A stretch of 64,000 nt of DNA, taken from an uncultured Candidatus Saccharibacteria bacterium (GTDB lineage: Bacteria; Patescibacteriota; Minisyncoccia; Phycocordibacterales; UBA918). Location: positions 5,300-69,299 of the forward strand of contig CAZVFY010000002.1 in assembly GCA_964626635.1 (NCBI GenBank), read 5' to 3'. The notes beneath the pieces are model-generated. The model was not told the origin of the DNA and searched no databases. It saw nothing but the letters and a program-made list of their open reading frames with translations. A program made the position numbers and the translations under genes. This document shows positions 20,088 to 49,862 of the stretch, one piece after another; position 1 is the first letter of the stretch; every line of letters starts with the position of its first letter.

Positions 20088-22181
<2,094 letters not shown>

Positions 22182-22197
22182 CACAATGGCGACAACA

Positions 22198-22229
22198 CAA
22201 AAGCCCCGGCACGAGTACCGGGGCTTTTG
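22198..22229. terminator. bidirectional intrinsic terminator between gyrB and the convergent gene
   Basis: AAAAGCCCCGG-loop-CCGGGGCTTTT with flanking A and T tracts. Confidence 0.7.
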
Positions 22230-22241
22230 TGTTGTAGGCTA

Positions 22242-23285
22242 TTAGCGGACTACTTGAGTGAATGAGTCGTTGTTATCAAACAAGTCTTCGTCTGTAGCAG
22301 TGGTGACCGTTACCGTGAACGGTGTTGCAGTCCGGTCAAAACCGAGGCTAATCACTGCCCGCTCGTTCGGCTTGAGTGGATCTTGAGCAGGTGAGCGGTA
22401 AGTTGTACCGTCAGGTAGTGACGCGACGTATGTCCAGATATCTGAGGTTTTACTACCAAAGTTTTGAACAGCAAACTGCACAGCGTCAGGATTGTTGCGT
22501 TCGATAGTTGCGGGTACGAATGTGCGATTGATGATTGTTCCCACACTACCATAGCTGGCGGCCAGATCTACGAACCCTGCTGGGTTCGAGACTGGAATGC
22601 TAAATTCGAACTGCTGTGTAACGGACGGTGCGGTAAGGGCAATATTGTCAGTTGCAGGTACCTCTATCGCTCCATCATCTGCGGCTACCTCGTTAGTGTC
22701 GTCGTTTGTAGTCGCGTTAGAAGCTTCACCATTTGTACCAATATTGTCTGTGATATTTGTATTCATGACCGTGAATACACCACTCCCCTCGGCGCTCACG
22801 TCAGATGAATCAGTGCCAACAAATCCAATTTTGTATTGTACGTCGGTGTAACGACTTTCGGTTGATTCGGCTATGAGGCTGACCTGGTTGACGGCGCCTA
22901 TATTATAATCAGTGTTACAGTCGATTTCAAAAAGGCCGTCTTGGCTGTCATGGCTCAAGGTAATACCAGGATCACAAGCGTAGACGAACACATACTCGCC
23001 ATTAGGTTCAGCGTCCCAACTGATTACTACAGACTCCCCATTCTCTAGAATGGTGGTGTCAGTAGCGACGGCAATTGGCAATACTGGATCTGGTTCAAGG
23101 TCAGCGGTTGGTTCTTGTGAGTTATTTACGCCACTGGTGATTGATGCGAGCGAACCGAGGGCGTTTGGCATACCGCCGATAAAACGCATGGCAAACCATG
23201 CCACGGCTAAAATTATGAAAAGAACGCTAATAAGGATGGCTGCCTTAACGATAGGCGAGCGCTTTGATGTATTGGTATCACTCAT
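22242..23285 (-). CDS. hypothetical type II membrane-anchored extracellular protein
   Basis: N-terminal signal anchor PIVKAAILISVLFIILAVAWFAM; Thr/Asn/Asp-rich ectodomain; TATAAT box 5 nt before the ATG. Confidence 0.5.
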   Translation of the reverse strand: MSDTNTSKRSPIVKAAILISVLFIILAVAWFAMRFIGGMPNALGSLASITSGVNNSQEPTADLEPDPVLPIAVATDTTILENGESVVISWDAEPNGEYVFVYACDPGITLSHDSQDGLFEIDCNTDYNIGAVNQVSLIAESTESRYTDVQYKIGFVGTDSSDVSAEGSGVFTVMNTNITDNIGTNGEASNATTNDDTNEVAADDGAIEVPATDNIALTAPSVTQQFEFSIPVSNPAGFVDLAASYGSVGTIINRTFVPATIERNNPDAVQFAVQNFGSKTSDIWTYVASLPDGTTYRSPAQDPLKPNERAVISLGFDRTATPFTVTVTTATDEDLFDNNDSFTQVVR

Positions 23286-23404
23286 ATAAAATTATATTAG
23301 CATGGATTATAAATAAGTCAAGTTTGATGTAATCATAATTACAGTAGTTCAAGGTCTTCAACTCTATCTAAATGCACTGTAAATGATGCCTCAGACAAAA
23401 ACTA

Positions 23405-23432
23405 TTGACAAACTTATCATAAGTGCTATGAT
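23405..23432 (+). promoter_or_regulatory. sigma70-like promoter of the sortase gene
   Basis: TTGACA - 16 nt - TATGAT, 11 nt upstream of ATG 23444. Confidence 0.45.
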
Positions 23433-23443
23433 TGTTTGCACGT

Positions 23444-24166
23444 ATGGAGACGAGCAACTCATTCGAACGCCTCATTGAAACGCTGTGGGAGCGCAAAATT
23501 TTATTTTTTGCTGCTTTTGCAATAATTGGATTATTGACCTACGCGTTACTCGCGTGGGTTGATTTTTTACCTGAGCCTCGCACAGTAGATCTTGATCCTC
23601 AAGCAACGTCTGAAAACAGTGTTGCACTGGGTGATAGTACTACAGCATTTCCGGCTCAAGAGATTGAAGTTGTATCGGGATCAGAAGATCCAGCAGCAGA
23701 GCCGGTAGAAGTGTTCGTGGCACCGGTACTACCAAACTCAATTTTTATACCTGCTACCGGTAAAACCATCCCGGTCTTGAACCCTAACTCTCGGTCAGTC
23801 GCTGATCTGGATGCGGCGCTACTAAATGGTGTCGTGCGACACCCTGACTCTGCGACGCTAGAAAGTGAGGGTAACGTGTTTATTTTAGGCCATTCTAGCT
23901 ATCTGCCGAATGTGTTCAATGAGTATTTTCAGGCTTTTAATGGTATCCAAGACCTGGAGTGGGGAGACGAAATTTTGGTCACTGCCAATGGCGAGACATA
24001 TGTGTACGTAGTTGACCGCGTGTTTGAAGCGCGCGCCTCAGAAGTAACCATCCCGCTGGTTGACACGGGCCGTCGGCTGACACTCGCCACCTGCGACAGT
24101 TTTGGTAGTGTCGAAGATCGGTTCATTGTCGAGGCGTCATTTGATCGCATCGATATGCAAATATAA
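23444..24166 (+). CDS. sortase family transpeptidase
   Basis: N-terminal TM helix; conserved His (VFILGHSS); catalytic LTLATCDSF (TLxTC motif); ATG 23444 preferred over the track's TTG at 23432. Confidence 0.75.
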   Translation: METSNSFERLIETLWERKILFFAAFAIIGLLTYALLAWVDFLPEPRTVDLDPQATSENSVALGDSTTAFPAQEIEVVSGSEDPAAEPVEVFVAPVLPNSIFIPATGKTIPVLNPNSRSVADLDAALLNGVVRHPDSATLESEGNVFILGHSSYLPNVFNEYFQAFNGIQDLEWGDEILVTANGETYVYVVDRVFEARASEVTIPLVDTGRRLTLATCDSFGSVEDRFIVEASFDRIDMQI

Positions 24167-24352
24167 TTACTTGACAAAACCTCAAAAATAGATTACAGTT
24201 GCTTGTAATTTATCGCTCTTTACTGCACAACTCGTAGAGGCAGCTAGTACTCAACAAAATAATATAGCGCAGCACTGTCTTTCATGGGATTGCTTACTCT
24301 TGCGTATGTGGTGTAGGTAGGAGTATTAATTTTAGGAAATAATTATAAATGT

Positions 24353-27061
24353 ATGAATACAAAAACTGTATTACGCCTGAGCTATGTACTGCCGATGCTA
24401 TTTGCGTTGGTATTCACATTTGCCGCTCCGGCTGCAACTATTGCTGCATGGGATGGCAATCAGAGTTCAGGCTGGTCAAACAGCGGAGGATTCGATTGGG
24501 GTGATCGTCCAGATTGGACAAATTCATTTAACTGGTCGAATGACAATAACTATGGAGATAATGGATCTTCTAGCAGCGCCAGTTCAGAAACGAAGTGTAA
24601 AGTTGACTCTCGGGTTGAGACTATTTCGTATGGTGGCAGTGTGACTCTGACCTGGGACACTGTTGGCGCTACGTCGGTGACCGTAAACGGTGAGTCAGTT
24701 AACCTTAGTGAAGGTAGTAAAACCTTTACAAATATTACTGAAGACACTGAATACGTACTCGAAGTAAAAACCGACAACGGTTCATGTAAAACAACTATTA
24801 AGGTTATCTGTCTGCCACCAGTCGTCATTAAAGGATGTACCGACGAACACGCTTTCAACTACAACCCGGATGCAACCGAGGATGATGGCTCATGTGAATA
24901 CGAGGTTCCCGGGTGTACTGATGATAATGCCGTCAATTATAATCCAGACGCCACCAAAGACGATGGTTCTTGTACATATCAAAAGTTATGTGAACCCGGT
25001 GATCAGTTTTACAATCCAGAAGCCGACTTAGAAGGTACTATTTTCGACGGTACAAAAGGGCGGGTAGTAAACACTTCGCAATACTGCGATTACAAAATTG
25101 GTCTTGCATCATATGAAAAATTTGATGAAATTATTGACAATCAAATTATCTTTGACAGTAAAACCGGCGTCGTAAAAGCAAGCAGTCAGAAAGAGTTACA
25201 CGTTACTGTGCCTGAGTGCGCATACCAAATTAATCTCTTTTACGGTCATGTGCTACAATCGCTTGATGGACAGCGATACGGCGATCGATTACTGGACGCT
25301 GAACATCTCAATAGCGAAAAGGGCTACTGTGGTCAAGAACAAGTTGTCTTAAAATGTACGTTGGTTGCTGATCGTAATGAAATTAAGCGTGGCGAATCAG
25401 CGACTTTAACGTGGACTAGTGAGCACGCCGAGTTTGCGTTTATAGACCGGGGTATTAATGACGTCGAGCTAAATGACAGTCGATCAGTAAAACCCAAGAA
25501 GACTACTACCTACACCCTTACTGTCTTTGGAAAAGATGGTCAAGAAAAAAAATGTGATGAAACTATAAAAGTTGAGAAAGATCCGACTCCAACCCCGGTT
25601 CCAAAATGTCACTCTTTCAGTATTGCTGAAAGTAAGGTTGTGCCGAGCGGTGATATTACCCTGTCATGGGACACGTCTGACACAACTAATGTAACAATTA
25701 CAAATATTGGTAGCGTTGCTAGTGATGGTTCGAACCAGGTCTTTAGCGCACCAGACAGTGAGGGTGAATTCACTTACGTCTTAACTTATGCTGGTAAGAC
25801 AAACGACACCTGCCGCGATACGCTAACTGTTGAGCGTGAAAGTGCCAGTATACCAGTTTGTGATTTGTTTACTGCTAGCGACACGTCGATCAATAAGGGT
25901 GAGCAAACGACATTGCGGTGGCAAACGACTAATGTTACCAATGTCTCAATTAACAATGGGGTAGGGTCAAATCTAGAGGTTGACGGTAACGTTGAGGTGA
26001 CACCCCAATCAGATACCACCTACATCCTCACGTTTGATGGTAATACAAATGATGATTGTCGTGTGGACATCAGCGTGACTAAAGACAGTGGTGGAGGTGG
26101 TGGCGGCGGTGGCAGTTCTTCTCCACGGTGTGAACTAGATATTTCAGACACGCGTATTGCTGCCGGGGAAGAAATTACCCTGACCTGGGATTCGACCCGA
26201 GCGCGTGACCTCACTATTACTGATGACCGAGGCAATGTCATCGTTACCACCGAAGACAAATTGTCAGACGATAAAGATGAATTATTTGAAGGTTCGATTG
26301 ATCTGCGACCAACGCGTGATACTGAATACACGCTCGTGGTCGAACGTGGAAGTCGTGACCGTGAATGTAATGTGTCAGTAGATATTCGTGGCAGTGTCAG
26401 TGGCGCCAGTATCACTGTTTTAGAAGAGCGTGATCAACAGCCGCTCATTACTGGCATCTCGCTATCAGAAGTGCCACACACAGGGTTCGAAGCTGGACCA
26501 CTCATGACATTTGCGTTCTATGCACTACTGGTTACTTGGGCATTAGTGCTCGCGTATGTACTAGTAATCCCTAGAGGAGCAGTTGCAAATGTCCACACCA
26601 CCACCGCAACTCCAACTGGTAATATCACCGCTCCAGTACCAACCGTGGTCGACTCTAGTCGAGTGTTCCCAGACTATGCAGCTCACACCAATACACCACA
26701 GTATAGCGCTGCTGCCACCGTGGCCGCACCAACCAATCTGCCAACTGGTTCAGTCGAAGATATTCTGGCGGCGCCAGTTGCACCGGCACCAGCACCGACC
26801 GCTCTGACCACGCCGACTCAAGCAGCCGTCCTAGCCGAAGGCACGCCGGTAGAAGTCGCTGCCCTCGAAGCTGTAGCTCACAATAACCAAGCGCTCTTCT
26901 CGAGTGATGCTCTCAAGGTGTTCATGGACATTACTGCAACCCAAGAACAGCTCATGAAAGCCGAACAAGTCATTACACTTGGTAAGTCACTCTATCCACT
27001 AGAAGACGGCTGGCTCATGATCAACAAAGCTCGAATGTTTGAACTGTTGGCGCAAACCTAA
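24353..27061 (+). CDS. large repeat-rich cell-surface protein with internal sortase-like sorting signal
   Basis: Signal peptide; five ~100 aa beta-sandwich repeats with T(L/V)TWD cores; two Cys-bracketed NYNPDAT.DDGSC repeats; poly-Gly linker; VPHTG motif then TM helix then Arg, followed by a ~170 aa tail. Confidence 0.6.
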   Translation: MNTKTVLRLSYVLPMLFALVFTFAAPAATIAAWDGNQSSGWSNSGGFDWGDRPDWTNSFNWSNDNNYGDNGSSSSASSETKCKVDSRVETISYGGSVTLTWDTVGATSVTVNGESVNLSEGSKTFTNITEDTEYVLEVKTDNGSCKTTIKVICLPPVVIKGCTDEHAFNYNPDATEDDGSCEYEVPGCTDDNAVNYNPDATKDDGSCTYQKLCEPGDQFYNPEADLEGTIFDGTKGRVVNTSQYCDYKIGLASYEKFDEIIDNQIIFDSKTGVVKASSQKELHVTVPECAYQINLFYGHVLQSLDGQRYGDRLLDAEHLNSEKGYCGQEQVVLKCTLVADRNEIKRGESATLTWTSEHAEFAFIDRGINDVELNDSRSVKPKKTTTYTLTVFGKDGQEKKCDETIKVEKDPTPTPVPKCHSFSIAESKVVPSGDITLSWDTSDTTNVTITNIGSVASDGSNQVFSAPDSEGEFTYVLTYAGKTNDTCRDTLTVERESASIPVCDLFTASDTSINKGEQTTLRWQTTNVTNVSINNGVGSNLEVDGNVEVTPQSDTTYILTFDGNTNDDCRVDISVTKDSGGGGGGGGSSSPRCELDISDTRIAAGEEITLTWDSTRARDLTITDDRGNVIVTTEDKLSDDKDELFEGSIDLRPTRDTEYTLVVERGSRDRECNVSVDIRGSVSGASITVLEERDQQPLITGISLSEVPHTGFEAGPLMTFAFYALLVTWALVLAYVLVIPRGAVANVHTTTATPTGNITAPVPTVVDSSRVFPDYAAHTNTPQYSAAATVAAPTNLPTGSVEDILAAPVAPAPAPTALTTPTQAAVLAEGTPVEVAALEAVAHNNQALFSSDALKVFMDITATQEQLMKAEQVITLGKSLYPLEDGWLMINKARMFELLAQT

Positions 27062-27083
27062 GCGCTAAGAGTACAGCAAACAC

Positions 27084-27114
27084 AAAACCGCGCCTCAATA
27101 GAGGCGCGGTTTTG
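27084..27114. terminator. bidirectional intrinsic terminator between the surface-protein gene and thrS
   Basis: AAAACCGCGCC-TCAATAGA-GGCGCGGTTTT. Confidence 0.7.
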
Positions 27115-27129
27115 TGTACTTCTATCTCT

Positions 27130-28866
27130 TTATACGCTGGCTTCGGCAGATAATTTCTCGATTAGCTCGGGTAGGGTATGGGTGGTCGACTCACCGGTGT
27201 CACGGCTCTCGAGTGTCACCGTTTTGTCCGCTACTTCCTTGTCACCAATGACGATGAGGTAGGGGAGTTTGGCCTTTTTGGCGTTGCGGATTTTTTTACC
27301 CATGCTGTCTTTGTGGTCATCAAGTTCGACACGCCAGTCGGCTGCGCGTAGTTTGCTCATGACCTGACGCGCATAGTCGTGGTGCGCGTCAGCCACGGGA
27401 ATAATGCGCAGATGTTCGGGTGACAGCCACAGTGGGAACGCCCCAGCGTAGTGCTCGATCAAGACACCCATAAAGCGCTCGAGCGACCCGCTGATCGCGC
27501 GGTGAATGACGACCGGCCGCTCGCGCTCGCCGTCTTCGTTTATAAATGACAAATCAAAGCGCTCAGGTAAATTGAAGTCGCACTGGATCGTTGCCAATTG
27601 CCACTCGCGTCCAATGGCATCCTTGAACATAAAATCAAGCTTTGGTCCGTAGAATGCCGCTTCGCCTTCGACGCGTTTATAATTGAGGTTGTTCGACTGT
27701 GCGGACTCTTCGAGCGCGGCCTCGGACTGTTCCCAGACATCGTCACCACCGAGGTACATACCCTCATCGTCACGCACGGACAAACTCACCCAGTAATTAT
27801 CAAGCAGTCCCATTCGCGCATAAAACGCGCGCACGATTTCGACCATCGTCGATACTTCCTCGGTGATCTGCGAGACGCGACAGAATATATGCCCGTCATC
27901 CTGAGTGATCGCTCGGACGCGGGTCAGGCCAGATAGCTGTCCCGACTTTTCGTAGCGGTACACCGTCGCTGGTTCAAAATAACGTACTGGCATGTCGCGA
28001 TACGAAAACTGATTGTCGGCAAAGATCTGCATGTGGTGCGGACAATTCATCGGCTTGAGTGCAAAGTCCTCATCGCCACCTTTGACCCGGAACAGTTCCT
28101 CGCCAAACTTCTCGGCGTGGCCGCTGGTTTCGTACAATGAAATGTTCGTAATGTGCGGCGTCCAGACGCGGTCGTAGCCGTGACCCTTATGCAGGTCCCA
28201 CAAATACTCCTCGATCGCCTGGCGGATGATCATGCCTTTTGGCTGCATCAGCGGGAGTCCTGCGCCAACAAGCGGCGAGATGGTGTAGAGCCCCAGTTCA
28301 GGACCGAGTTTTTTGTGGTCGCGTTTTTTCGCTTCTTCTAATTGCTGTTCGTACGCCACTAGTTCCTCTTTAGTATCAAATGCGACGCCGTATATTCGGG
28401 TAAGCATCGGATTCTTCTCATCACCGCGCCAGTACGCCCCAGCGATCTTATCGAGCTTGAACGCATCGGCTGCAATTTCTTCTCGTGGATTGTCGACGTG
28501 TCCACCGCGACACAGGTCGGTAAATCCGCCGCACGTGTACAGGGTGATCGGCTCGCCGCGCTCTTCGATCTCGTCGATTAGTTCGAGCTTGAACTGATTG
28601 CCAGCAAATACCTCGCGCGCGCGTTCGAGGGTAACTTCCTCGTGTGACCATTCGGTCCATTTATTCAGCAGTTTCTTCATCGTCTTCTGCACGCGCTTCA
28701 GGTCGTCTTCGCCCGGAGCGTCGCCAGTAGAGAAATCGATGTCGTAGTAAAATCCGTTGTCGATCGCGGGACCGAGGGTCAGGCGAGCGTGCGGATACTG
28801 TTCGACTACCGCGGCGGCGAGTAGGTGAGCGAGGGTGTGGCGTTTGTGGGCGAGTTGTTCGTTCAT
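27130..28866 (-). CDS. thrS: threonine--tRNA ligase (lacks N-terminal TGS domain)
   Basis: Editing-domain start HKRHTLAHLLAAAVVEQYPHARLTLGPAIDNGFYYD; class II catalytic core and anticodon-binding domain; ATG 28866 chosen because the track's upstream start is a TTG lying inside the promoter/terminator region. Confidence 0.85.
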   Translation of the reverse strand: MNEQLAHKRHTLAHLLAAAVVEQYPHARLTLGPAIDNGFYYDIDFSTGDAPGEDDLKRVQKTMKKLLNKWTEWSHEEVTLERAREVFAGNQFKLELIDEIEERGEPITLYTCGGFTDLCRGGHVDNPREEIAADAFKLDKIAGAYWRGDEKNPMLTRIYGVAFDTKEELVAYEQQLEEAKKRDHKKLGPELGLYTISPLVGAGLPLMQPKGMIIRQAIEEYLWDLHKGHGYDRVWTPHITNISLYETSGHAEKFGEELFRVKGGDEDFALKPMNCPHHMQIFADNQFSYRDMPVRYFEPATVYRYEKSGQLSGLTRVRAITQDDGHIFCRVSQITEEVSTMVEIVRAFYARMGLLDNYWVSLSVRDDEGMYLGGDDVWEQSEAALEESAQSNNLNYKRVEGEAAFYGPKLDFMFKDAIGREWQLATIQCDFNLPERFDLSFINEDGERERPVVIHRAISGSLERFMGVLIEHYAGAFPLWLSPEHLRIIPVADAHHDYARQVMSKLRAADWRVELDDHKDSMGKKIRNAKKAKLPYLIVIGDKEVADKTVTLESRDTGESTTHTLPELIEKLSAEASV

Positions 28867-28927
28867 AATATGTGTGGTCACTAGTATCTGTGATGATACC
28901 TTGCCAGTGTAAAAAGGCAAAGAAATA

Positions 28928-36010: not shown

Positions 36011-36724
36011 ATGACTGAACTCGATCACGAGACAACTGATTTGGTCGCGCTCGAAGGCGTGCTGGGCGCCACTTTTACCGACCAGACGATCCTCAAAAGC
36101 GCGATCACGCACCGTTCGTACCTCAACGAACACCGCGAAGCTGATTGGGAACACAACGAACGTCTAGAATTTCTGGGGGACGCAGTACTAGAACTGGTCG
36201 TGACTGACTATCTGTATCAACAATACCCGGACAAACCAGAAGGTGAGCTGACCGCTGTGCGCGCCGCGCTTGTCAATACCGTATCACTGGCGGCGACGTC
36301 CGAAGCACTTGATATCGGCGCGTACATGCTGATGAGTAAGGGCGAGGCCAAAGACACCGGCCGCGCGCGGCAGTATATCCTCGCCAACGCTTTCGAGGCG
36401 TGTGTAGGGGCGTTGTACGTAGATCAGGGGTACGCGGCTGCGCAGGCATTCATTGCTACAAATCTTTTTCCTAAAACAGACGAGATTGTCCGGCAGCGGC
36501 TGTGGCAAGACCCCAAATCCAGATTCCAAGAGCTCGCCCAAGAACACGCCAATGTCACCCCGACGTACGAAACATTGGGGCAGGAGGGGCCAGATCATGA
36601 TCGCGAATTCACGGTCGGCGTATTTTTACGCAAAGAAAAGATCGCGGTCGGCAAGGGTCGTAGCAAACAAGAAGCCGAACAGCAAGCCGCCGAGTCCGGT
36701 ATTACCCACAAGGGTTGGAATTAG
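36011..36724 (+). CDS. rnc: ribonuclease III
   Basis: ERLEFLGDAVLELVV signature; C-terminal dsRBD. Confidence 0.9.
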   Translation: MTELDHETTDLVALEGVLGATFTDQTILKSAITHRSYLNEHREADWEHNERLEFLGDAVLELVVTDYLYQQYPDKPEGELTAVRAALVNTVSLAATSEALDIGAYMLMSKGEAKDTGRARQYILANAFEACVGALYVDQGYAAAQAFIATNLFPKTDEIVRQRLWQDPKSRFQELAQEHANVTPTYETLGQEGPDHDREFTVGVFLRKEKIAVGKGRSKQEAEQQAAESGITHKGWN

Positions 36725-36753
36725 TTAGTAACTGGATACTATACACTGTATGC

Positions 36754-37302
36754 ATGCGTTTAGGCGGTTTTACATTAATTGAAATAATTGTAGTGGTGAG
36801 TATTATATCTCTGCTCGCTGCAGTAGTGGGTACAAACTACAGCAATGTTAGAACCGAGTCTCGCATCAAAGCTGAACAGGCTACACTGGAGCAAATGAAG
36901 CTCGCCTTTACGTTATACGCTGAATTATACGGTCATTATCCTGCTGGTGTGACTCTTGGCGGTTACCCTATGCCTAATAATGACAATTGTTCGTCGTGTT
37001 TTCTTAGGCCGCCGGCCAACCTTCTGGAAGCCACCATTCAATGGGGGGCTGCTGCCAGTGCAATGATTGGTGCTGGGCTTATCAATGATTCAATATTCAC
37101 AGATAGCTGGGGTATGCCGTATGCATATGATAATAATTCTTATGGCGCACACAACGTCGATCTGTTCTCCTTTGTTTGCAGCACTGGTCCAGACCGGGTC
37201 TGGGGTGTTTCTGACAGTGCCGCAACTATCGCTGTATTTGACCGCACCACTGGTACACATGAGCCGCTGGGTGACGATATCTGCGTTTTTTTACCTAATT
37301 AA
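36754..37302 (+). CDS. type IV pilin-like protein (prepilin-type N-terminal cleavage/methylation domain)
   Basis: MRLGG|FTLIEIIVVVSIISLLAAV class III signal. Confidence 0.7.
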   Translation: MRLGGFTLIEIIVVVSIISLLAAVVGTNYSNVRTESRIKAEQATLEQMKLAFTLYAELYGHYPAGVTLGGYPMPNNDNCSSCFLRPPANLLEATIQWGAAASAMIGAGLINDSIFTDSWGMPYAYDNNSYGAHNVDLFSFVCSTGPDRVWGVSDSAATIAVFDRTTGTHEPLGDDICVFLPN

Positions 37303-37305
37303 TGT

Positions 37306-38028
37306 ATGCTTCAGTTTACTACCCAAAACCGTGGTTTTACACTCTTAGAAATATTAGTGGTAACCGCGATTATCAGCATTTTTCTCACAACTGTGTACGT
37401 GAACTTTACTGGTTCATACGCTCAGGCTCGTGACGCCGAGCGCAAAGCAAATGTACAGAACGTCGCAACGGCATTGGAGTTATACAAAAATAAATACGGG
37501 CGGTACCCTGAAGCGTGCAACGGCCCAATTCCACGACCCACACCAAACCCAATACAAGGTTCTGTCTTGTGGTCCGGTGAGCCAGGTACTGCTGATGAGT
37601 GTCCGTCAAGTGGTGACGATTACATAGTGGGATTGGCACCAGAATTCATTGAAGAATTACCCACCGACCCTCGTGCCCGTACTGATGCTGGGTATGTATA
37701 CGCCGTAAATTATAACGGTTCGGCGTACAAGTTTATGGCGATGAACACGGTCGAGAACGAAACCGTCACGTCTGACAGCGCATTTTTCCGCTGCGGGCAA
37801 GGATTTAATGTAATGGGTACCCCTGCGACAGAAACATACGATGACGAAGTGATGTGCTTACGTACACCCAGAGAGTTTGGTGGTGGTAATGTTTCAATAG
37901 ACGGCTGCCATGCAGCTTCAAACAGCGCGATAAACGCCCGAACGTATGCAGTCTCGGCAGGCATTGCCACAGAAGGTTCTGATTTGAGACAGGTTGAACA
38001 CTACACCGAAATTGTCCGCTGCGGGTAG
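37306..38028 (+). CDS. type IV pilin-like protein
   Basis: QNRG|FTLLEILVVTAIISIFLTTVYV N-terminal prepilin motif. Confidence 0.7.
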   Translation: MLQFTTQNRGFTLLEILVVTAIISIFLTTVYVNFTGSYAQARDAERKANVQNVATALELYKNKYGRYPEACNGPIPRPTPNPIQGSVLWSGEPGTADECPSSGDDYIVGLAPEFIEELPTDPRARTDAGYVYAVNYNGSAYKFMAMNTVENETVTSDSAFFRCGQGFNVMGTPATETYDDEVMCLRTPREFGGGNVSIDGCHAASNSAINARTYAVSAGIATEGSDLRQVEHYTEIVRCG

Positions 38029-38087
38029 CACTTGTAATGTGCACTACCCGCAATCCCGCGGCGCACATTTAGTATGATAAGGACAGT

Positions 38088-38636
38088 ATGAAATACTTTC
38101 GCACACCGCTCCCAACCGCTGGGTTTACCCTCCTAGAAATTCTGGTGGTGACGTCGATCATCGCTATTCTCTCGAGTATTCTGTATGTCAGTTTTAGCGA
38201 CTCGCGCAACTTGGCACGGGACCGGGCGATGATGTCCGAGTTCAAGCAAGTGCAGCTGGCGTTGCAGACGTATTATGCACAGAATGATGCGTATCCAGCG
38301 CCTAATCCGTCGTGTGGGCTAAGCACTAGGGCAACTGAATCGGCTACCTGTGGTGATTACATAATTATTTCGAACGAATTTATTACTGAATTGCCGCGTA
38401 GCGCAGATTCGGGAAACAGTAATTGCCAAATATCATATCAGGTTGATAGTGTCAGCGACCCTCAAAATTATAAACTAACAGGGATCAATTGCATTGCCAG
38501 CGATCTCGTCATTACTCTAGAGAATGATATGGCTAGATGTCCGAGTACTTCTGATGGCTTAGGAGAATGCAGTTCCAGCCATGCAGACTTCGCCAAGTCA
38601 TTCGCTGTGTACAGCCCCGGGGGCCAGTCATATTAG
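38088..38636 (+). CDS. type IV pilin-like protein
   Basis: TAG|FTLLEILVVTSIIAILSSILYV N-terminal prepilin motif. Confidence 0.7.
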   Translation: MKYFRTPLPTAGFTLLEILVVTSIIAILSSILYVSFSDSRNLARDRAMMSEFKQVQLALQTYYAQNDAYPAPNPSCGLSTRATESATCGDYIIISNEFITELPRSADSGNSNCQISYQVDSVSDPQNYKLTGINCIASDLVITLENDMARCPSTSDGLGECSSSHADFAKSFAVYSPGGQSY

Positions 38637-38638
38637 TC

Positions 38639-40861
38639 ATGCAGTTACAGTCGCTCAAGGTCAATGGCTTTAAATCGTTCGCCCACCAGAGCGAACTGGC
38701 GTTTACCACCCCGATCACGGCGATCGTCGGGCCCAATGGCTCGGGCAAGAGCAACGTAGCCGAGGCCTTTCGGTTCGTGCTCGGCGAACAGTCCGTCAAA
38801 TCCATGCGCGGTAAACGCGGCTCGGACCTGCTGTGGGGCGGGTCGGACGCGGTTGCGCGCAAGGGGCGGGCTAGTGTGTGCGTGTCGCTCGATAACCGGT
38901 CACGGCTCCTTGATCTGGATTTTGATGAGGTGCGGATCGAGCGCGTGGTACACCGTGATGGACAGAACGACTATCTCCTCAATGGCTCTGCGGTCCGGTT
39001 GCGGGATATTCACGAACTACTGGCCGGGGCGCACATCGGCCCCAGCGGGCATCACATTATTTCGCAAGGCGAGGCTGATCGCGTCCTGACCGCCAACGCT
39101 CGCGAGCGACGCGAAATGGTCGAGGACGCGCTGGGTCTCAAAGTATTCCAAACCAAAAAACACGAAGCCACCAAAAAACTAGAAAAAACCCTTCAGAATA
39201 TCAGCGAGACTGAGTCGCTGCGGCGCGAGGCGGCGCCCCATCTGCGCTACCTTGAGCGCCAAGTGGCGGACGCCGAACGCGCTACCACAACACAACAGGA
39301 ATTATTGGCTGGCTACCACGAATACCTCTACCGCGAAGACACGTACGTCGCACTGCGTACCAACACCCTCCAGGCTGAGCAGCATACACTACAGCAATCT
39401 GTCCGAGACAGTCACGATCAGGTAGCTGCGCTGCGCGCCCAAAAGGCCACCTACGAAGAGGGTGTCGATCGCACGCCACTAGAGGAAGCCGGACGAACCC
39501 AGGCTGCGGTCGAGCAGGTCTGGCAAGAGGCCGTAGCAAAGGCCAATCAACTAGAAGGCCAGGTCACGTACCTACGCCGCAGCATAGAAGAGCGCGAGCA
39601 CGCGGCCAGCCAAACGGTCGAGGCGCCGACGGTCGTGTCCCGGCACCTAGTCGACCAGGTGTACAACACGGCCCGCGCACAAGAACCGTCAGCCGCCGCC
39701 CACCAGCAGTTAGTGTCCGACCTAGAGGCAGTGCTGCAGGCTGATCTGCCGACCACTGAACTGTATGACAGTACCTCGGACAAACAACAGCTCGAGACCC
39801 TCAAGGCTGCATTAGCCTCAGCCATCGAACAAGTCACGCAGGCGTTTCAGGCAGTCGAGACAGCCAGGCATAAAGTCCAGCAAGCCCAGGCCGACATCGA
39901 CGCCCAACAGTCCGCGTGGCACGACACGGAACAAGCATTGTTCATAGCGCTCGGTCGCGAGCGCGAACAAACAGTAGCATTGCGTACAGTAGAAGCAGAA
40001 CTAGCAACGCTCGAGCGCGACCGGGCGGATTTTAAACAAGAATTATACGAAGCCACGACGCTAGTCGGCCGCAACGTCATGCAGTACAGCCAGTACGGAG
40101 CGCAATCGGACGTCAGCATCACCGAAGACGAAGTGCTGCAGGAGCCAAGAGACTCGCAACGCGACCGGCGCACTCAGCTGGAGAAACTAAAGATCCGCCT
40201 CGAGGAACTAGGGGTAGGTGACACCGAGGCACTCATGCTGGAATTCCGCCAGTCCAAGGAGCGCGACGAGTTTCTATCAGGCGAACTGGACGATCTACAT
40301 TCATCGGTGGACAATCTGCGGACGCTAATAGGTGAATTAGACACCCAGATCCACACCGCATTACAGTCTGGTCTGGCGCAGATAGATCGCGAATTCAATC
40401 GCTTTTTTACGCTGATGTTTGGTGGCGGCAAGGCAGCGCTTGATCTAGTGACACCAAAACCGAGCGACGCTGACGCTGTCGACGGAGATCAATCTGCACT
40501 CCAGCAGTCCGGCATCGAGCTGCACGTGTCGCTCCCCAACAAACGCGTCAAAGGGCTAGAGATGCTCTCTGGCGGCGAGCGAGCGCTGACGTCGATCGCG
40601 CTGGTATTCGCGATGAGTCAGGTCAACCCGCCGCCATTTATTATATTGGACGAGACCGACGCGGCCCTCGACGAGGCCAACAGCCGTCGGTACGGGGATA
40701 TGATTGAAGCGCTGGCACAGAAATCGCAACTGATTTTGATCACCCACAACCGCGAGACAATGTCGCGCGCGGGCGTCCTGTACGGCGTGACGATGGCGGG
40801 GGATGGGGTGTCGCAACTGTTGTCCATTCAGTTTGCTGATGCGACAATCCACGCCAAATAG
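38639..40861 (+). CDS. smc: SMC-like chromosome segregation ATPase, short (740 aa) with no recognisable hinge
   Basis: N-terminal head GFKSF....ITAIVGPNGSGKSN; C-terminal LSGGERALTSIALVFAM....FIILDETDAALD; coiled-coil middle with no Gly-rich hinge; sits in the conserved rnc-smc position. Confidence 0.75.
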   Translation: MQLQSLKVNGFKSFAHQSELAFTTPITAIVGPNGSGKSNVAEAFRFVLGEQSVKSMRGKRGSDLLWGGSDAVARKGRASVCVSLDNRSRLLDLDFDEVRIERVVHRDGQNDYLLNGSAVRLRDIHELLAGAHIGPSGHHIISQGEADRVLTANARERREMVEDALGLKVFQTKKHEATKKLEKTLQNISETESLRREAAPHLRYLERQVADAERATTTQQELLAGYHEYLYREDTYVALRTNTLQAEQHTLQQSVRDSHDQVAALRAQKATYEEGVDRTPLEEAGRTQAAVEQVWQEAVAKANQLEGQVTYLRRSIEEREHAASQTVEAPTVVSRHLVDQVYNTARAQEPSAAAHQQLVSDLEAVLQADLPTTELYDSTSDKQQLETLKAALASAIEQVTQAFQAVETARHKVQQAQADIDAQQSAWHDTEQALFIALGREREQTVALRTVEAELATLERDRADFKQELYEATTLVGRNVMQYSQYGAQSDVSITEDEVLQEPRDSQRDRRTQLEKLKIRLEELGVGDTEALMLEFRQSKERDEFLSGELDDLHSSVDNLRTLIGELDTQIHTALQSGLAQIDREFNRFFTLMFGGGKAALDLVTPKPSDADAVDGDQSALQQSGIELHVSLPNKRVKGLEMLSGGERALTSIALVFAMSQVNPPPFIILDETDAALDEANSRRYGDMIEALAQKSQLILITHNRETMSRAGVLYGVTMAGDGVSQLLSIQFADATIHAK

Positions 40862-40949
40862 CTTGAAAAATATTTCAGTTGTGGTATAAACGTAGCTGGA
40901 TCCTACCGTCACGATGACGGGGGACATTTCTCACAGGGAGTACAGTTCC

Positions 40950-41594
40950 ATGACAACCATGATCAGGTCGCTTCTGGCCCTCGTGCTAACCGTTTTGCTG
41001 CCGTTCGCCGCGTTCGCGTCGACGGTGGCACCGACGTCCGTCGAAATCTTCGGCGAACAGTTCGTCCGCAAGGACACCCGCTACATCGCCACGGTGGACA
41101 TCCCAAGCTCGGGCGTGCCTGAGCGGATCACGGTGACGACCCGGCCACTGCCGGTGCGCTCGACGTTCGATATGCTAGCACGTGAGGTCGGATTCGATTC
41201 ACCTTACGGCTTCCTCGACACCACCGCGCTGCTTTTGCCGGGGGAGACCGGCATCATCAGCGGCGGATCCTTCACCGATGTGAACGGTGTCACCTCGCCG
41301 ACGGAGTTCCAGGTCGAGATCTTCCTCTTAGCCTCGGACGTCGACGCGCTCGGGACACTGGATCGCCAAATGCTACTGGACAGGCCGATCGGCGTCGAGC
41401 TTGGCTGGCTCGATGCGGCCGGCATGCCGATCGCCCTCACGCCGGACTATGTCAGCCAACTGCCAACTGTCGGTAATATGGACGACGGTAACGGACCGTC
41501 GCCAGTCCCGCTGCCGCCGGCTGCCTGGTTCCTCCTCTCGGGGCTTGCCGGTCTGGGCTATGTCGCCAGGCATCGCTCGCGCGCAGCCGCCTGA
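40950..41594 (+). CDS. secreted protein with VPLPA/PEP-CTERM-like C-terminal sorting domain; compositionally GC-rich
   Basis: SD AGGGAG 9 nt upstream; signal peptide MTTMIRSLLALVLTVLLPFAAFA; C-terminal VPLPPAAWFLLSGLAGLGYVARHRSRAA; GC3 visibly above neighbours. Confidence 0.5.
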   Translation: MTTMIRSLLALVLTVLLPFAAFASTVAPTSVEIFGEQFVRKDTRYIATVDIPSSGVPERITVTTRPLPVRSTFDMLAREVGFDSPYGFLDTTALLLPGETGIISGGSFTDVNGVTSPTEFQVEIFLLASDVDALGTLDRQMLLDRPIGVELGWLDAAGMPIALTPDYVSQLPTVGNMDDGNGPSPVPLPPAAWFLLSGLAGLGYVARHRSRAAA

Positions 41595-45029: not shown

Positions 45030-45815
45030 ATGAAACGCGCTCACTTTTACATACTCACCGCCGCCATTGGTCTCTTACTTATTCTTGCAATTGTTGTGTT
45101 TACTAACGAACCCGACGTAGCCCCAGGAGATACGGCTGGCAATACCACACAACCGCAACCAGCCCCGACCGAACCAGCAGAGCGAACTGCACCCCTCAGC
45201 ACCACCACCGCCGCTGGTACCTTCATCATCGACCCCGCCATCCCAATCAACGAGCGCTGTACCCCCGTGACCCTGGCGTGTCTGGAGGCGCAGCCGGAGT
45301 GGAACCCAACCATGGCGACAACCGGGATCGAGCGGATTGACCCGAGCGAGCTCACGCTGTTCGATGGTACCTACCAACTAGACTACCAATCCGTCCCGCG
45401 CAGTACCGATCCATTTACTTTCGTGACCGCTAAAGACGAGCACGACCCTGCATATTGCGCACAGTATGACCTCACCGGCTTGGATTTATTTATCCGTGAT
45501 GAGGGACCCTTAGAACCATCATGTTCAATTTACCCACCAGAAGCGTACCAAGAGTTCGTCATTCTTGATGAGAACGAGGCGGTGGTGCATGCGTATCGCT
45601 TATCGGATAAATATTCGTTATTAGAACTAAGGGCCGGCGTGCAACTAATGGGGAGGGTTAATTCGGTCGGTGCAGGATGTTGCAACAGTCAATACAGTAC
45701 ATCTCTCTCTCTCTCATTTATAAACTGGTCTGATTATAATCAGTTTTATAACCCTATCGTTACAGGGGTTTATATAAACCCTTACACCGGCGCCTTCAAC
45801 GACCGCACCAATTAG
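45030..45815 (+). CDS. signal-anchored extracytoplasmic protein, paralog family member A1
   Basis: MKRAHFYILTAAIGLLLILAIVVF anchor; conserved core TTTAAGTFIIDPAIPI.ERCTPVTLACLEAQPEW; contains an in-frame (TC)7 tract; TATACT box 6 nt upstream of the ATG. Confidence 0.6.
   Translation: MKRAHFYILTAAIGLLLILAIVVFTNEPDVAPGDTAGNTTQPQPAPTEPAERTAPLSTTTAAGTFIIDPAIPINERCTPVTLACLEAQPEWNPTMATTGIERIDPSELTLFDGTYQLDYQSVPRSTDPFTFVTAKDEHDPAYCAQYDLTGLDLFIRDEGPLEPSCSIYPPEAYQEFVILDENEAVVHAYRLSDKYSLLELRAGVQLMGRVNSVGAGCCNSQYSTSLSLSFINWSDYNQFYNPIVTGVYINPYTGAFNDRTN
45702..45715 (+). repeat. (TC)7 dinucleotide repeat inside paralog A1 coding sequence (currently in frame)
   Basis: tctctctctctctc encoding SLSLS. Confidence 0.8.
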
Positions 45816-45913
45816 TCGACACCCTTTTGGCCCCGTGCTACACTCGCCTTAGAACAGCCGCCCTTTCGGGCGGTTTCTGTTCTTTGATAACCTCAAACAA
45901 AAAGGAGGCAGTC

Positions 45914-48850: not shown

Positions 48851-48900
48851 AACGAACAACTGATAGCACCCGTGGCGTCCGCGCCACGGGTGGTTTTTTA
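48795..48900 (+). repeat. R1: ~100 nt two-hairpin repeat (3' codons of the large gene plus terminator), followed by a conserved promoter
   Basis: GAACTGGAACTGCAGCTGCCAATC..GGAGCTGACGAGTTCCTGTTCTAG imperfect hairpin, then CACCCGTGGCGTCCGCGCCACGGGTGGTTTTTT; four copies in the island. Confidence 0.8.
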
Positions 48901-48936
48901 TCTTATTCTAAGCTACAGTGCTGCTATACTCACATT

Positions 48937-49647: not shown

Positions 49648-49755
49648 ATGAGACCGATGAGAGAGAACTCAATATTACTAATCTATACACCGGAGAAATT
49701 AATCGGTTTATTCCAGTTAATGAACGCTAGCTCTACCTCATTACAATTAAAAAAG

Positions 49756-49826: not shown

Positions 49827-49862
49827 TCTTATTCTAAGCTACAGTGCTGCTATACTCTACGT

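What the first reader, a model, noticed from the sequence alone, without database searches (positions are those of the whole stretch)
23444..27061. Sortase next to a 902 aa surface protein whose sorting-signal-like motif is internal
The sortase (TLxTC catalytic motif LTLATCDSF) is followed by a large secreted repeat protein. That protein has a xPxTG-type motif (LSEVPHTG), then a hydrophobic helix (LMTFAFYALLVTWALVLAYVLVI) and an Arg. This is the tripartite cell-wall sorting signal, but it lies ~170 aa before the C-terminus, which continues as a Pro/Thr/Ala-rich linker and a small helical domain. If processed, the ectodomain would be wall-linked and a TM-anchored fragment with a cytoplasmic tail left behind, which is not the canonical arrangement. 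The protein also carries two copies of a Cys-bracketed CTD..A.NYNPDAT.DDGSC repeat.
Basis: partly seen in the sequence, partly recalled or inferred. Interest (0 to 1): 0.55.

Follow-up and report, generated by a model that had tools for sequence, protein, structure and literature searches.

The report
Sortase substrate with conserved cytoplasmic tail
A tiny-celled (Patescibacteria) bacterium encodes a sortase next to a large surface protein whose wall-anchoring signal lies mid-protein, before a conserved intracellular domain; about 135 related species share this layout, and no paper found in five literature searches describes it.

Summary
The sortase is at 23444..24166 and the 902-aa protein at 24353..27061. 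That protein has a signal peptide, VPHTG (aa 707-711), one TM helix (717-739), Arg741, then 163 more residues.

It is not chance. A profile of the C-terminal module finds 1048 representative proteins. In 207 unique sequences the P, T and G of the motif never vary. The consensus is AGISL[TS]xVPYTGF[ED]AGP, a TM helix with fixed F, Y, W and Y, then [RK][RK].

In 66 of 69 related Patescibacteria loci with room upstream, a sortase with intact His/Cys/Arg motifs lies directly upstream. The order pheT-gyrB-n347-sortase-protein-thrS-dnaE recurs.

The same signal, in register, ends tail-less paralogs. In five related sequences an A9 run places a stop two codons after KKK, and the intact tail lies in the -1 frame.

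The tail is a disordered linker with a PxNLP motif and an AAA+-lid-like domain. Two-thirds of relatives add a clamp-loader-collar-like domain.

Best reading: a real sortase signal fused to a conserved cytoplasmic module. Cleavage itself is untested. I class it as a new variant of a known kind.

The parts
22242..23285 (-). n347: conserved divergently transcribed partner gene. It has an N-terminal TM anchor (23187..23252), then PxAFsSLASL, a Cys pair and a CARDB/DUF11-like C-terminal part.
   Evidence: ORF. Homologue present in 61 of 80 related loci in the same position and orientation. Conservation profile. No Pfam or NCBIfam family above cut-off.
23405..23432 (+). Promoter-like site TTGACA-16-TATGAT (11/12, TG extended), ending 11 nt before the sortase ATG. 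It suggests a near-leaderless sortase mRNA.
   Evidence: Consensus scan only; sequence.
23444..24166 (+). Sortase, 240 aa from the ATG (an alternative TTG start is at 23432). TM anchor at 23498..23560, LGHSSYLP (His) at 23885..23908, LTLATCDSF (Cys) at 24077..24103, DRFIVEA (Arg) at 24116..24136.
   Evidence: PF04203 E=1.5e-20, 73.6 bits. All three catalytic motifs are at least 90% conserved in 69 orthologues. Nearest solved structure is 4d70, a class D sortase, E=7e-5. Below every NCBIfam class cut-off. It is the only sortase in the 64-kb window.
24171..24199 (+). Promoter-like site TTGACA-17-TACAGT between the sortase stop and the large gene.
   Evidence: Consensus scan only; sequence.
24353..27061 (+). 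902-aa surface protein precursor. Sources annotate it as 'hypothetical protein'.
24353..24451 (+). N-terminal signal peptide-like segment (aa 1-33, hydrophobic core aa 5-33, ...AAPAATIAAW).
   Evidence: Hydropathy scan. No dedicated signal-peptide predictor was available.
24833..24973 (+). Two Cys-bracketed repeats GCTDxxAxNYNPDATxDDGSC (24833..24895 and 24911..24973). They lie in the lineage-variable part of the ectodomain (aa ~150-335).
   Evidence: Read from the sequence. This region is covered by only 11-31% of orthologues. No Pfam match.
25355..26422 (+). Conserved ectodomain core: four Ig-like repeats, each bracketed by conserved Cys, with a Gly8 linker at 26090..26113.
   Evidence: Covered by BLASTP HSPs to 95-99% of 80 orthologues. 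Conservation profile.
26462..26500 (+). Sortase-type motif with flanks, LSEVPHTGFEAGP. The pentapeptide VPHTG is at 26471..26485. Family consensus: AGISL[TS]xVPYTGF[ED]AGP.
   Evidence: P, T, G, F, A and G are 100% and Y 97% in 207 unique sequences. The selecting pattern required P.TGF.A, but all 150 top profile hits carry P[YHQ]TGF. The stretch is unstructured in the model, pLDDT about 55.
26501..26569 (+). Single TM helix LMTFAFYALLVTWALVLAYVLVI, carrying the family's fixed F14, Y15, W21 and Y27 (counted from the motif's P).
   Evidence: Hydropathy. Model helix with pLDDT above 90. Logo. The same register appears in tail-less paralogs.
26570..26578 (+). Basic stop-transfer position, P-R-G (Arg741). 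The family has [RK][RK] here.
   Evidence: R/K 91% and 82% at the two positions. In L083, L085, L088 and L105 this is where the A9 run and the frame-0 stop lie.
26579..26854 (+). Disordered Pro/Thr/Ala-rich cytoplasmic linker containing the conserved short motif PxNLP (APTNLPTG at 26726..26749).
   Evidence: pLDDT 52-63. PxNLP is present in 169 of 212 tails, and the next two residues are TG in only 60 of 174.
26855..27058 (+). Compact 68-aa alpha/beta cytoplasmic domain (LE.xAH..ALxSSDA...YPxEDGWxxINxxR) with an AAA+-lid-like fold.
   Evidence: pLDDT about 97. Foldseek best matches are lid-type domains: 2v6z with TM 0.65 normalised to the target, and RuvBL lids, all with E>=0.08. Invariant columns. 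No Pfam or PDB sequence match.
27080..27117 (.). 17-bp GC-rich hairpin between the convergent large gene and thrS, a likely bidirectional terminator. The window protein therefore truly lacks the second, collar-like domain.
   Evidence: Terminator scan. thrS ORF at 27130..28920 on the minus strand.

Best explanation
This is a lineage-conserved sortase/substrate locus of Patescibacteria (Paceibacteria/Parcubacteria-type MAGs). The steps below are marked as shown or inferred.

1. The 902-aa protein is exported through its N-terminal signal peptide and held in the membrane by its single TM helix (inferred from sequence).
2. VPHTG then sits about 5 residues outside the membrane, where the neighbouring membrane-anchored sortase can reach it. 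The placement is shown by topology reasoning.
3. The segment VPHTG-FEAGP-TM(F,Y,W,Y)-R is a genuine lineage-specific sorting domain of the [VIL]PxTG type. This is shown by comparison: the same domain, in register, is the C-terminus of tail-less paralogs and of the frame-0 products of recoded orthologues.
4. The sortase cleaves between T and G and transfers the Ig-repeat ectodomain to the cell wall or another envelope amine (inferred, not shown).
5. Cleavage would leave a membrane stub, GFEAGP-TM, carrying a conserved cytoplasmic module. The module is a disordered linker with a PxNLP motif plus an AAA+-lid-like domain, and in about two-thirds of relatives also a clamp-loader-collar-like helical domain.
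6. The tail is under strong constraint and so has its own function. The most likely roles are recruiting or clustering the precursor through cytoplasmic protein-protein contacts before cleavage, or acting as a membrane-tethered product after cleavage (inferred).
7. In one subclade an A9 run at the signal/tail boundary would let the cell make both a canonical tail-less substrate and the tailed form. This implies that only a fraction of molecules needs the tail there.
For: Sortase identity and intact catalytic motifs.

Sortase directly upstream on the same strand in 66 of 69 informative loci, and a recurring order pheT-gyrB-n347-sortase-X-thrS-dnaE across 80 species-level loci.

Family size and unvarying P/T/G with [RK][RK] after the TM helix.

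Topology.

Tail-less paralogs with the identical signal in register, ending 7-14 aa after the basic residues.

Orthologues in the same syntenic locus whose frame 0 ends ...VPYTGF[ED]AGP-TM-KKKVS*, with the complete conserved tail in the -1 frame behind A9 (five distinct sequences, at least 8 samples).

Tail constraint and fold.

[quoted passage not shown] Sortases are common in CPR: PMC6744442.
Against: - No experimental or proteomic evidence of cleavage exists.
- None of the five literature searches found a described sortase substrate with a long conserved domain after the sorting signal.
- The window protein matches no NCBIfam family at E<=0.1.
- The sortase fits no defined class.
- A cleaved C-terminal peptide is normally discarded, so a conserved tail could instead mean the protein stays intact.
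- The fixed residues on one face of the TM helix could reflect a stable membrane complex rather than transient recognition.
- Only 2-3 canonical VPxTG substrates were seen, all in the sampled flanks. No whole genome was scanned for substrates.
Confidence: 0.6

Rival explanations
1. The protein is an uncleaved single-pass transmembrane adhesin or receptor. VPYTGFEAGP is a structural juxtamembrane element, perhaps a docking site in a stable sortase/n347/substrate membrane complex. The neighbouring sortase works on other proteins or acts as a non-catalytic partner.
For: The TM helix has fixed F, Y, W and Y, and FEAGP is far more conserved than a sortase needs. The TM anchors of the sortase and of n347 also have conserved residues. 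The cytoplasmic tail is strongly conserved and well folded, which fits a protein that functions intact.
Against: The same TM signature occurs in tail-less paralogs and in frame-0 products that end right after the basic residues. It therefore belongs to the signal, not to a tail-dependent function. The sortase catalytic His, Cys and Arg motifs are at least 90% conserved in 69 species. P-x-T-G is kept without exception.
Confidence: 0.2
2. The sortase does cleave at VPxTG, but it joins the ectodomain to another protein rather than to peptidoglycan. The acceptor could be the conserved neighbour n347, or another copy of the protein in a pilus- or S-layer-like polymer.
For: [VIY]PxTG motifs are typical of pilin substrates of class C sortases (own knowledge, for example the pneumococcal Rrg pilins). 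n347 is co-conserved, divergently transcribed, membrane-anchored and has a conserved Lys in GtKTS.
Against: No YPKN-type pilin motif and no unvarying Lys is seen in the conserved ectodomain core. There is only one sortase per locus. The sortase scores slightly better against class D/E than class C models, and all scores are far below cut-off.
Confidence: 0.12
3. Artefact: the long ORF is a fusion of two genes by a sequencing or assembly frameshift, or the motif is a chance match.
For: Some relatives do show frame breaks: an in-frame TAA in L002, the A9 frame change in L083, L085, L088 and L105, and a strain-variant mis-join in L083.
Against: The in-frame fused architecture is found in 64 long-tail and 15 short-tail loci from independent assemblies, and in more than 140 representative proteins. 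The window has no homopolymer at the junction. The exact 902-aa protein occurs on 4 contigs in three sources. The A9 variants recur identically in independent samples and keep an intact tail ORF.
Confidence: 0.02

Closest known systems
Canonical LPXTG cell-wall sorting signal and sortase A-type anchoring (Gram-positive surface proteins)
   Same: It has an N-terminal signal peptide, a [LIV]PxTG pentapeptide with an acidic residue soon after the G, an adjacent hydrophobic helix, then basic residues. A membrane-anchored Cys transpeptidase with a TLxTC motif is encoded next door. The definition is taken from PMC4617865.
   Different: In the window protein 163 residues follow the TM helix, including a folded domain, instead of the C-terminus. 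The TM helix and the FEAGP spacer are conserved in sequence. No NCBIfam sorting-signal model matches, and the sortase is below every class cut-off.
Dedicated sorting enzyme/target pairs and signature C-terminal sorting domains (PEP-CTERM/exosortase, GlyGly-CTERM/rhombosortase, MYXO-CTERM/myxosortase, class GN sortase with its target)
   Same: It has a lineage-specific, sequence-conserved tripartite domain (signature motif, TM helix, basic cluster) genomically paired with its processing enzyme. The concept is taken from PMC3237569, PMC11980579 and 10.1101/2023.06.07.544157.
   Different: Those domains are by definition at the extreme C-terminus. Here the domain is internal in most members. The enzyme is a sortase but not the class GN one (TIGR03784 scores 17.9 bits against a cut-off of 158).
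Pilin-type sortase substrates with [I/V/Y]PxTG motifs (class C sortases)
   Same: The first residue of the motif is V/I/L rather than strictly L. The substrate is built of Ig-like domains with paired Cys.
   Different: There is no pilin-motif Lys, no multi-sortase pilus island and a single sortase per locus. The resemblance to specific pilins is from my own knowledge and was not tested here.
Clamp-loader subunits (DnaX gamma/tau, delta', RFC): lid (domain II) plus collar (domain III)
   Same: The long-tail relatives' cytoplasmic module (model of P0001, pLDDT 87) has the top 23 Foldseek PDB hits all to clamp-loader subunits over about 200 columns, best E=3e-3. The window's own terminal domain is lid-like.
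   Different: There is no AAA+ ATPase core and no sequence similarity. TM-scores are low (about 0.4), which may reflect a different domain orientation. The window protein has only the lid-like domain, and all its hits have E>=0.08. This is a fold resemblance, not membership.
dnaX-type recoding (A_AAA_AAG -1 frameshift in E. coli; slippage on A runs)
   Same: In relatives L083 and L085 the heptamer A_AAA_AAG lies within an A9 run (A_AAA_AAA in L088 and L105). It precedes a frame-0 stop two codons later and an intact conserved -1 ORF. PMC1851650 describes the slippery heptamer and PMC1088944 describes A-run slippage.
   Different: No consistent downstream stimulatory hairpin was found. Here the unshifted product is the short one. 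The site is not present in the window gene. Production of two proteins is not shown.

Membership tests
Sortase (Pfam PF04203, Cys transpeptidase) | Sortase domain above the Pfam gathering score | tested here: met
   73.6 bits against a cut-off of 26.6, E=1.5e-20, residues 104-236.
Sortase (Pfam PF04203, Cys transpeptidase) | Catalytic His, TLxTC Cys and Arg | tested here: met
   LGHSSYLP, LTLATCDSF and DRFIVEA are present, and each is at least 90% conserved in 69 orthologues.
Sortase (Pfam PF04203, Cys transpeptidase) | N-terminal membrane anchor with the catalytic domain outside | tested here: met
   One hydrophobic segment, ILFFAAFAIIGLLTYALLAWV, preceded by ERK. Topology is inferred from the positive-inside rule.
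Sortase (Pfam PF04203, Cys transpeptidase) | Assignment to a defined class (A-F, GN) by NCBIfam | tested here: not met
   Best is class E at 35.1 bits against a cut-off of 160. SrtD scores 32.3/140, class C 23.2/160 and class GN 17.9/158.
Sortase (Pfam PF04203, Cys transpeptidase) | Transpeptidase activity on the neighbouring protein | not testable with these tools
   Needs biochemistry or proteomics.
LPXTG-type cell-wall sorting signal | N-terminal secretion signal on the same protein | tested here: met
   Hydrophobic aa 5-33 followed by an AxA-like site. No SignalP was available.
LPXTG-type cell-wall sorting signal | [LIV]PxTG pentapeptide | tested here: met
   VPHTG at aa 707-711. In 207 unique family sequences V is 86%, I and L 6% each, P 100%, Y 97%, T 100% and G 100%. 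All 150 top profile hits carry P[YHQ]TGF.
LPXTG-type cell-wall sorting signal | Hydrophobic membrane-spanning segment within about 10 residues of the motif | tested here: met
   TM helix at aa 717-739 after a 5-residue spacer.
LPXTG-type cell-wall sorting signal | Positively charged residues right after the hydrophobic segment | tested here: met
   Arg741 in the window. The family has R/K at 91% and 82% of the two positions.
LPXTG-type cell-wall sorting signal | Signal lies at the extreme C-terminus | tested here: not met
   163 residues follow the TM helix in the window protein. The feature is met only in tail-less paralogs (L001, L079) and in the frame-0 products of L083, L085, L088 and L105.
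LPXTG-type cell-wall sorting signal | Match to a curated sorting-signal model (NCBIfam) | tested here: not met
   No NCBIfam family matches at E<=0.1 for the 902-aa protein.
LPXTG-type cell-wall sorting signal | Cleavage between T and G and amide linkage to the wall | not testable with these tools
   Needs mass spectrometry of wall fractions or an in vitro assay.
Dedicated sortase/target gene pair | Enzyme and target genes adjacent across species | tested here: met
   66 of 69 loci with at least 900 nt upstream have the sortase upstream on the same strand, with a median gap of 230 nt. The 3 misses have under 1.5 kb upstream.
Dedicated sortase/target gene pair | One-to-one relation (no other substrates in the genome) | tested here: not met
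   At least two further proteins with the same signal are encoded in the same locus in L001 and L079. Whole genomes could not be scanned.
Clamp-loader lid + collar module | Fold similarity to domains II-III | tested here: inconclusive
   For the long-tail relative the best E is 3e-3 and TM-score about 0.41 normalised to the query, with the top 23 hits all clamp loaders. For the window's domain only lid-type hits were found, all at E>=0.08.
Clamp-loader lid + collar module | AAA+ ATPase core and sequence similarity | tested here: not met
   No ATPase domain precedes the module. No Pfam or PDB sequence match was found; Hda_lid matched 2 of 26 members at E=0.014 only.
Programmed -1 frameshift / transcriptional slippage site (relatives only) | Slippery A run with an intact conserved ORF in the -1 frame and an early frame-0 stop | tested here: met
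   Found in L083, L085, L088 and L105. It is not present in the window, where the sequence is GTA CTA GTA ATC CCT AGA GGA.
Programmed -1 frameshift / transcriptional slippage site (relatives only) | Downstream stimulatory RNA structure | tested here: not met
   No consistent stable hairpin was found. Z-scores ranged from +1.2 to -3.6, with different folds in the three sequences.

The most novel reading that the evidence does not exclude
Sortase cleavage turns one precursor into two working products. One is a wall-linked Ig-repeat surface protein. The other is a membrane-tethered cytoplasmic module (PxNLP motif, AAA+-lid-like domain and, in most relatives, a clamp-loader-collar-like oligomerisation domain). 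This module would couple surface-protein anchoring to a cytoplasmic process such as envelope growth, division or chromosome-associated machinery. In some lineages the cell would tune the ratio of tailed to tail-less precursor by recoding at an A9 run placed exactly at the signal/tail boundary. That would be a bacterial analogue of ectodomain shedding that leaves a signalling or scaffolding stub.
Probability: 0.15. Interest if true: 0.85.

Novelty: new variant of a known kind. Interest (0 to 1): 0.68.

Why it matters
Sorting signals processed by sortases and their analogues are defined as short C-terminal domains that are thrown away after cleavage. Here a large, uncultivated bacterial group keeps such a signal fused to a conserved cytoplasmic module. 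The gene sits in a core, vertically inherited locus next to its sortase. One subclade appears to make both the canonical and the tailed form from one gene.

If cleavage occurs, the 'discarded' part of a sortase substrate has a function of its own. That would be a new principle for sortase biology. It would also give a concrete, testable handle on how ultra-small Patescibacteria build and position their major surface protein.

Three practical products follow:
- a lineage-specific sorting-domain signature, [VIL]PYTG-x10-FY-x5-W-x5-Y-x4-[RK][RK], usable for annotating substrates;
- an uncharacterised cytoplasmic domain family with no Pfam or NCBIfam model;
- a candidate recoding site.

Tried and rejected
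- **Second sortase site.** The 'NLPTG' in the linker is not one. Only PxNLP is conserved, TG follows in 60 of 174 cases, and the motif is on the cytoplasmic side.
- **Pilus-type polymerisation.** No conserved pilin-motif Lys was found in the ectodomain core.
- **Sequence-level identity of the tail.** Pfam, NCBIfam and PDB sequence searches gave nothing.
- **dnaX for a profile comparison.** I looked in the fetched loci and found none.
- **Word-indexed search with one tail-less paralog.** It found nothing. The alignment-based repeat worked.
- **RNA elements.** Rfam on 22100..27300 returned only sub-threshold matches on the terminator hairpin.
- **Frameshift-stimulating hairpin.** None was consistent downstream of the A9 run.
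- **Metagenome scan for the A9+GTTTCTTAGG site.** It gave 51 matches, but only one (L105) lies in the family context.
- **Structure prediction with locus-derived sequences.** I redid it with sub-sequences of proteins returned by the searches.
- **Literature.** Searches for PYTG, internal LPXTG, and sortase with CPR, Parcubacteria or Patescibacteria found no description of this system.
- **Artefact or gene-fusion explanation.** Rejected on the comparative data.

Full report
**1.

The window encodes a 240-aa sortase at 23444..24166, with an alternative TTG start at 23432. After a 186-nt gap comes a 902-aa protein at 24353..27061.

The sortase matches Pfam PF04203 at 73.6 bits against a cut-off of 26.6. 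It carries LGHSSYLP, LTLATCDSF and DRFIVEA behind one N-terminal TM segment.

The 902-aa protein has exactly two hydrophobic segments: an N-terminal signal (aa 5-33) and LMTFAFYALLVTWALVLAYVLVI (aa 717-739). VPHTG is at aa 707-711, Arg741 follows the helix, and 163 residues come after it. Both Cys-bracketed repeats are present at aa 161-181 and 187-207.

**2. It is a large conserved family, not chance**

- A search with the last 213 residues found four relatives sharing the whole module.
- A profile of that alignment against 1.84 billion representative proteins gave 1048 hits at E<=1e-3 and 230 at E<=1e-30. The top 150 are mostly large proteins, 184-1930 aa including some fragments, that cover the full module.
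- Over 207 unique sequences the consensus is AGISL[TS]xVPYTGF[ED]AGPxLTxxFYxLLxxW[AGS]LxxAYxLV[IV][RK][RK]. P, T, G, F14, Y15, W21 and Y27 are at or near 100%. The selecting pattern required P.TGF.A, but every one of the 150 top hits carries P[YHQ]TGF.
- 150-350 residues always follow the motif.
- Sources call the window protein 'hypothetical protein'. No Pfam or NCBIfam model covers the tail.

**3. Genomic context**

A scan of one genome per species found 135 relatives. The 80 loci fetched are mostly MAGs labelled Patescibacteria, Paceibacteria, Parcubacteria, Nomurabacteria or Kaiserbacteria, with many auto-named 'uncultured Candidatus Saccharibacteria'.

The gene order pheT, gyrB, n347 (minus strand), sortase, large protein, thrS (minus), dnaE (minus) recurs wherever the contig allows. 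Of 69 loci with at least 900 nt upstream of the family ORF, 66 have the sortase upstream on the same strand. The three misses have under 1.5 kb of upstream DNA.

There is one sortase per locus and one in the 64-kb window. In 69 orthologous sortases the His, Cys and Arg motifs are at least 90% conserved.

The sortase is distant from all defined classes. The best NCBIfam score is 35 bits against a cut-off of 160, and the nearest structure is 4d70, a class D sortase, at E=7e-5.

The neighbour n347 has an N-terminal anchor, a Cys pair and a CARDB-like end. It is co-conserved in 61 loci.

**4. Is the internal segment a real sorting signal?**

Four lines of evidence say yes.

(a) It has all the parts of the canonical signal as defined in PMC4617865: a pentapeptide, a hydrophobic stretch and positive residues. 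It also has an acidic residue two positions after the G.

(b) Topology puts the motif outside the membrane, 5 residues from it, in an unstructured stretch.

(c) Two other proteins encoded in the same locus of related genomes (L001 4524..6785 and L079 12093..13160) carry the same stalk, VPYTG and the same TM signature in register (FY/FF-x5-W-x5-Y-x4-[RK][RK]). They end 7-14 residues after the basic pair, which is the canonical position.

(d) A profile of the stalk plus signal found proteins P0155-P0158 that all end ...VPYTGF[ED]AGP-TM-KKKVS. The two whose long contigs could be read, P0158 (L083) and P0155 (L085), lie in the same syntenic locus. Their DNA reads GTA/ATA AAA AAA AAG GTT TCT TAG (L083, L085) or CTT AAA AAA AAA GTT TCT TAG (L088, L105). 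This is an A9 run followed by a frame-0 stop two codons later.

From the run onward the -1 frame is open. It encodes the complete conserved tail: KKK[GS]FLG..., PANLPT, LENQAH..LLSSDA..FPSEDGW, and the second domain.

Five distinct sequences from at least eight samples share this arrangement, so it is not a sample-specific error. An intact tail ORF with no plausible start or TM helix of its own (L085, L105) implies expression by recoding.

A_AAA_AAG is the slippery heptamer known from E. coli dnaX (PMC1851650), and A runs of this length are prone to transcriptional slippage (PMC1088944). I found no consistent downstream hairpin, so I cannot say which mechanism applies.

For the question in hand the point is simple. 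Evolution marks the end of the sorting signal exactly after the basic residues, and treats the tail as an add-on module. The window gene has no A run there and is fused in frame.

**5. The tail**

AlphaFold2 on the window's last 213 residues with a 39-sequence alignment gives three parts:
- a confident TM helix;
- a disordered linker (pLDDT 52-63);
- a compact 68-aa alpha/beta domain (pLDDT about 97).

Foldseek against the PDB finds only lid-type domains for it: the DNA polymerase epsilon B N-terminal domain (2v6z, TM-score 0.65 normalised to the target) and RuvB/RuvBL lids. All have E>=0.08, so the resemblance is weak.

The linker holds a conserved PxNLP motif in 169 of 212 tails. The following 'TG' is present in only a third, so this is a cytoplasmic short linear motif and not a second LPXTG.

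About two-thirds of relatives carry a second, roughly 100-aa helical domain (64 of 79 loci; 97 of 140 representatives). The two-domain model has pLDDT 87. Its top 23 PDB matches are all clamp-loader subunits aligned over lid plus collar, with best E=3e-3 and TM-score about 0.4.

There is no ATPase core and no sequence similarity. I treat this as a fold resemblance that hints at protein-protein contact or oligomerisation, not as membership.

The window protein ends at the first domain. A terminator hairpin at 27080..27117 and then thrS follow at once.

**6. The ectodomain**

Residues ~335-690 are four Ig-like repeats with paired Cys and a Gly8 linker, shared by 95-99% of orthologues. Residues ~150-335, including the Cys-bracketed repeats, are specific to the lineage. 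No pilin-type Lys motif is conserved.

**7. Mechanism**

Shown:
- the architecture and its conservation;
- the pairing with the sortase;
- the modular boundary between signal and tail;
- the folds.

Inferred:
- Sec export and stop-transfer by the TM helix;
- sortase attack between T and G, with transfer of the ectodomain to the wall;
- a remaining stub, GFEAGP-TM-tail, whose conserved cytoplasmic module either positions or clusters the precursor before cleavage, or works afterwards as a membrane-tethered product.

Confidence is about 0.6.

Main rival (0.2): the protein stays intact as a transmembrane link, and the motif is a docking element.

Second rival (0.12): cleavage occurs, but with transfer to another protein such as n347.

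Artefact: 0.02.

**8. Comparison and novelty**

The locus works like a sortase/LPXTG system, and the enzyme is a member of the sortase superfamily. The signal fails one defining feature, the extreme C-terminal position, and matches no curated model. The sortase fits no class.

Literature searches found CPR sortases mentioned only in general terms (PMC6744442, PMC5220378). Nothing was found on this motif, on internal sorting signals or on this locus.

I class it as a new variant of a known kind, with interest 0.68.

**Caveats**

- No experiment supports cleavage.
- No whole genome was scanned for other substrates.
- Signal-peptide and topology calls rest on hydropathy and the positive-inside rule.
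- The clamp-loader likeness is weak.
- The recoding site is in relatives, not in this window.

Noticed in passing
L083 10177..10197; L085 5361..5381; L088 650..669; L105 (minus strand, about 1440..1460): An A9 run sits exactly at the sorting-signal/tail boundary. Frame 0 ends KKKVS* two codons later, and the -1 frame encodes the entire conserved tail. Five distinct sequences from at least 8 samples show this. It is a candidate programmed -1 frameshift (A_AAA_AAG, as in dnaX) or transcriptional slippage site that would give tail-less and tailed isoforms.
   Followed up: yes
L001 4524..6785; L079 12093..13160: Tail-less paralogs are encoded between the family gene and thrS. They carry the same stalk, VPYTG and TM signature in register, and end 7-14 residues after the basic pair (canonical C-terminal sorting signals). 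L044 10996..12783 has VPETG followed by two hydrophobic segments.
   Followed up: yes
L002 478..480: An in-frame TAA lies 19 codons before VPYTG in an otherwise collinear orthologue (...VNVDEQ* VSLILDRDQQPLTSISLSQVPYTG...). The gene caller then started a 184-aa 'protein' at the motif. It could be a nonsense mutation, an error or readthrough; this was not resolved.
   Followed up: partly
window 40914..41594 (+): A 226-aa protein ends PVPLPPAAWFLLSGLAGLGYVARHRSRAAA. It matches the VPLPA-CTERM sorting domain (TIGR03370, 29.6 bits against a cut-off of 25.35). This is an exosortase-type signal, which is unexpected in a Patescibacteria-like genome that also uses a sortase. I did not look for an exosortase.
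   Followed up: partly
window 45030..51237 (+): A cluster of paralogous small proteins starts MKR[AST]HFY[IL]L plus a TM helix (45030..45815, 48937..49647, 49803..50168, 50593..51237). Two ORFs end with an NPYTG-containing stretch and no TM helix (45030..45815, 50242..50580). The two that were searched (45030..45815 and the 1007-aa ORF 45827..48850) have no NCBIfam match.
   Followed up: no
window 36715..38636 (+): Three consecutive ORFs have prepilin-type N-termini (G/FTL[IL]E[IL]...), consistent with type IV pilin genes. They lie upstream of a short SMC-like gene (38567..40861, 764 aa) that scores 535.8 bits against the SMC_prok_B cut-off of 567.
   Followed up: no
window 3..1523 (+): A partial surface protein (FN3-like repeats by eye) ends in a TM helix plus a basic tail (...LLILLLWIVFTRRITEDKETTK) without any PxTG motif. 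Not every anchored surface protein here uses the sortase signal.
   Followed up: no
window 24833..24973 (+): The two GCTDxxAxNYNPDATxDDGSC repeats sit in the lineage-variable part of the ectodomain and match no Pfam model. Their origin and function were not pursued.
   Followed up: no
L083 9950..10010: A second frame break lies in the same gene, where two variant copies of the same segment (…DECKVSVDVE / DKTCKVEVEVE…) follow each other. It looks like an assembly join of strain variants rather than biology.
   Followed up: no
L019 about 7240: An in-frame A9 run (GCC AAA AAA AAA CTA) lies at the same junction in a normally fused orthologue. It is a possible intermediate, or a slippage-prone site acting in the opposite direction.
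   Followed up: no
L049, L058, L077 (record titles): Records titled Patiriisocius sp., Acidimicrobiales bacterium and Azotimanducaceae bacterium carry the full Patescibacteria-type synteny (gyrB-n347-sortase-X-thrS-dnaE). The bins are probably contaminated or mislabelled.
   Followed up: no
window 23405..23444: A strong promoter-like site (TTGACA-16-TATGAT with TG) ends 11 nt before the sortase ATG. This suggests a leaderless or near-leaderless sortase transcript and favours ATG 23444 over TTG 23432 as the start.
   Followed up: no
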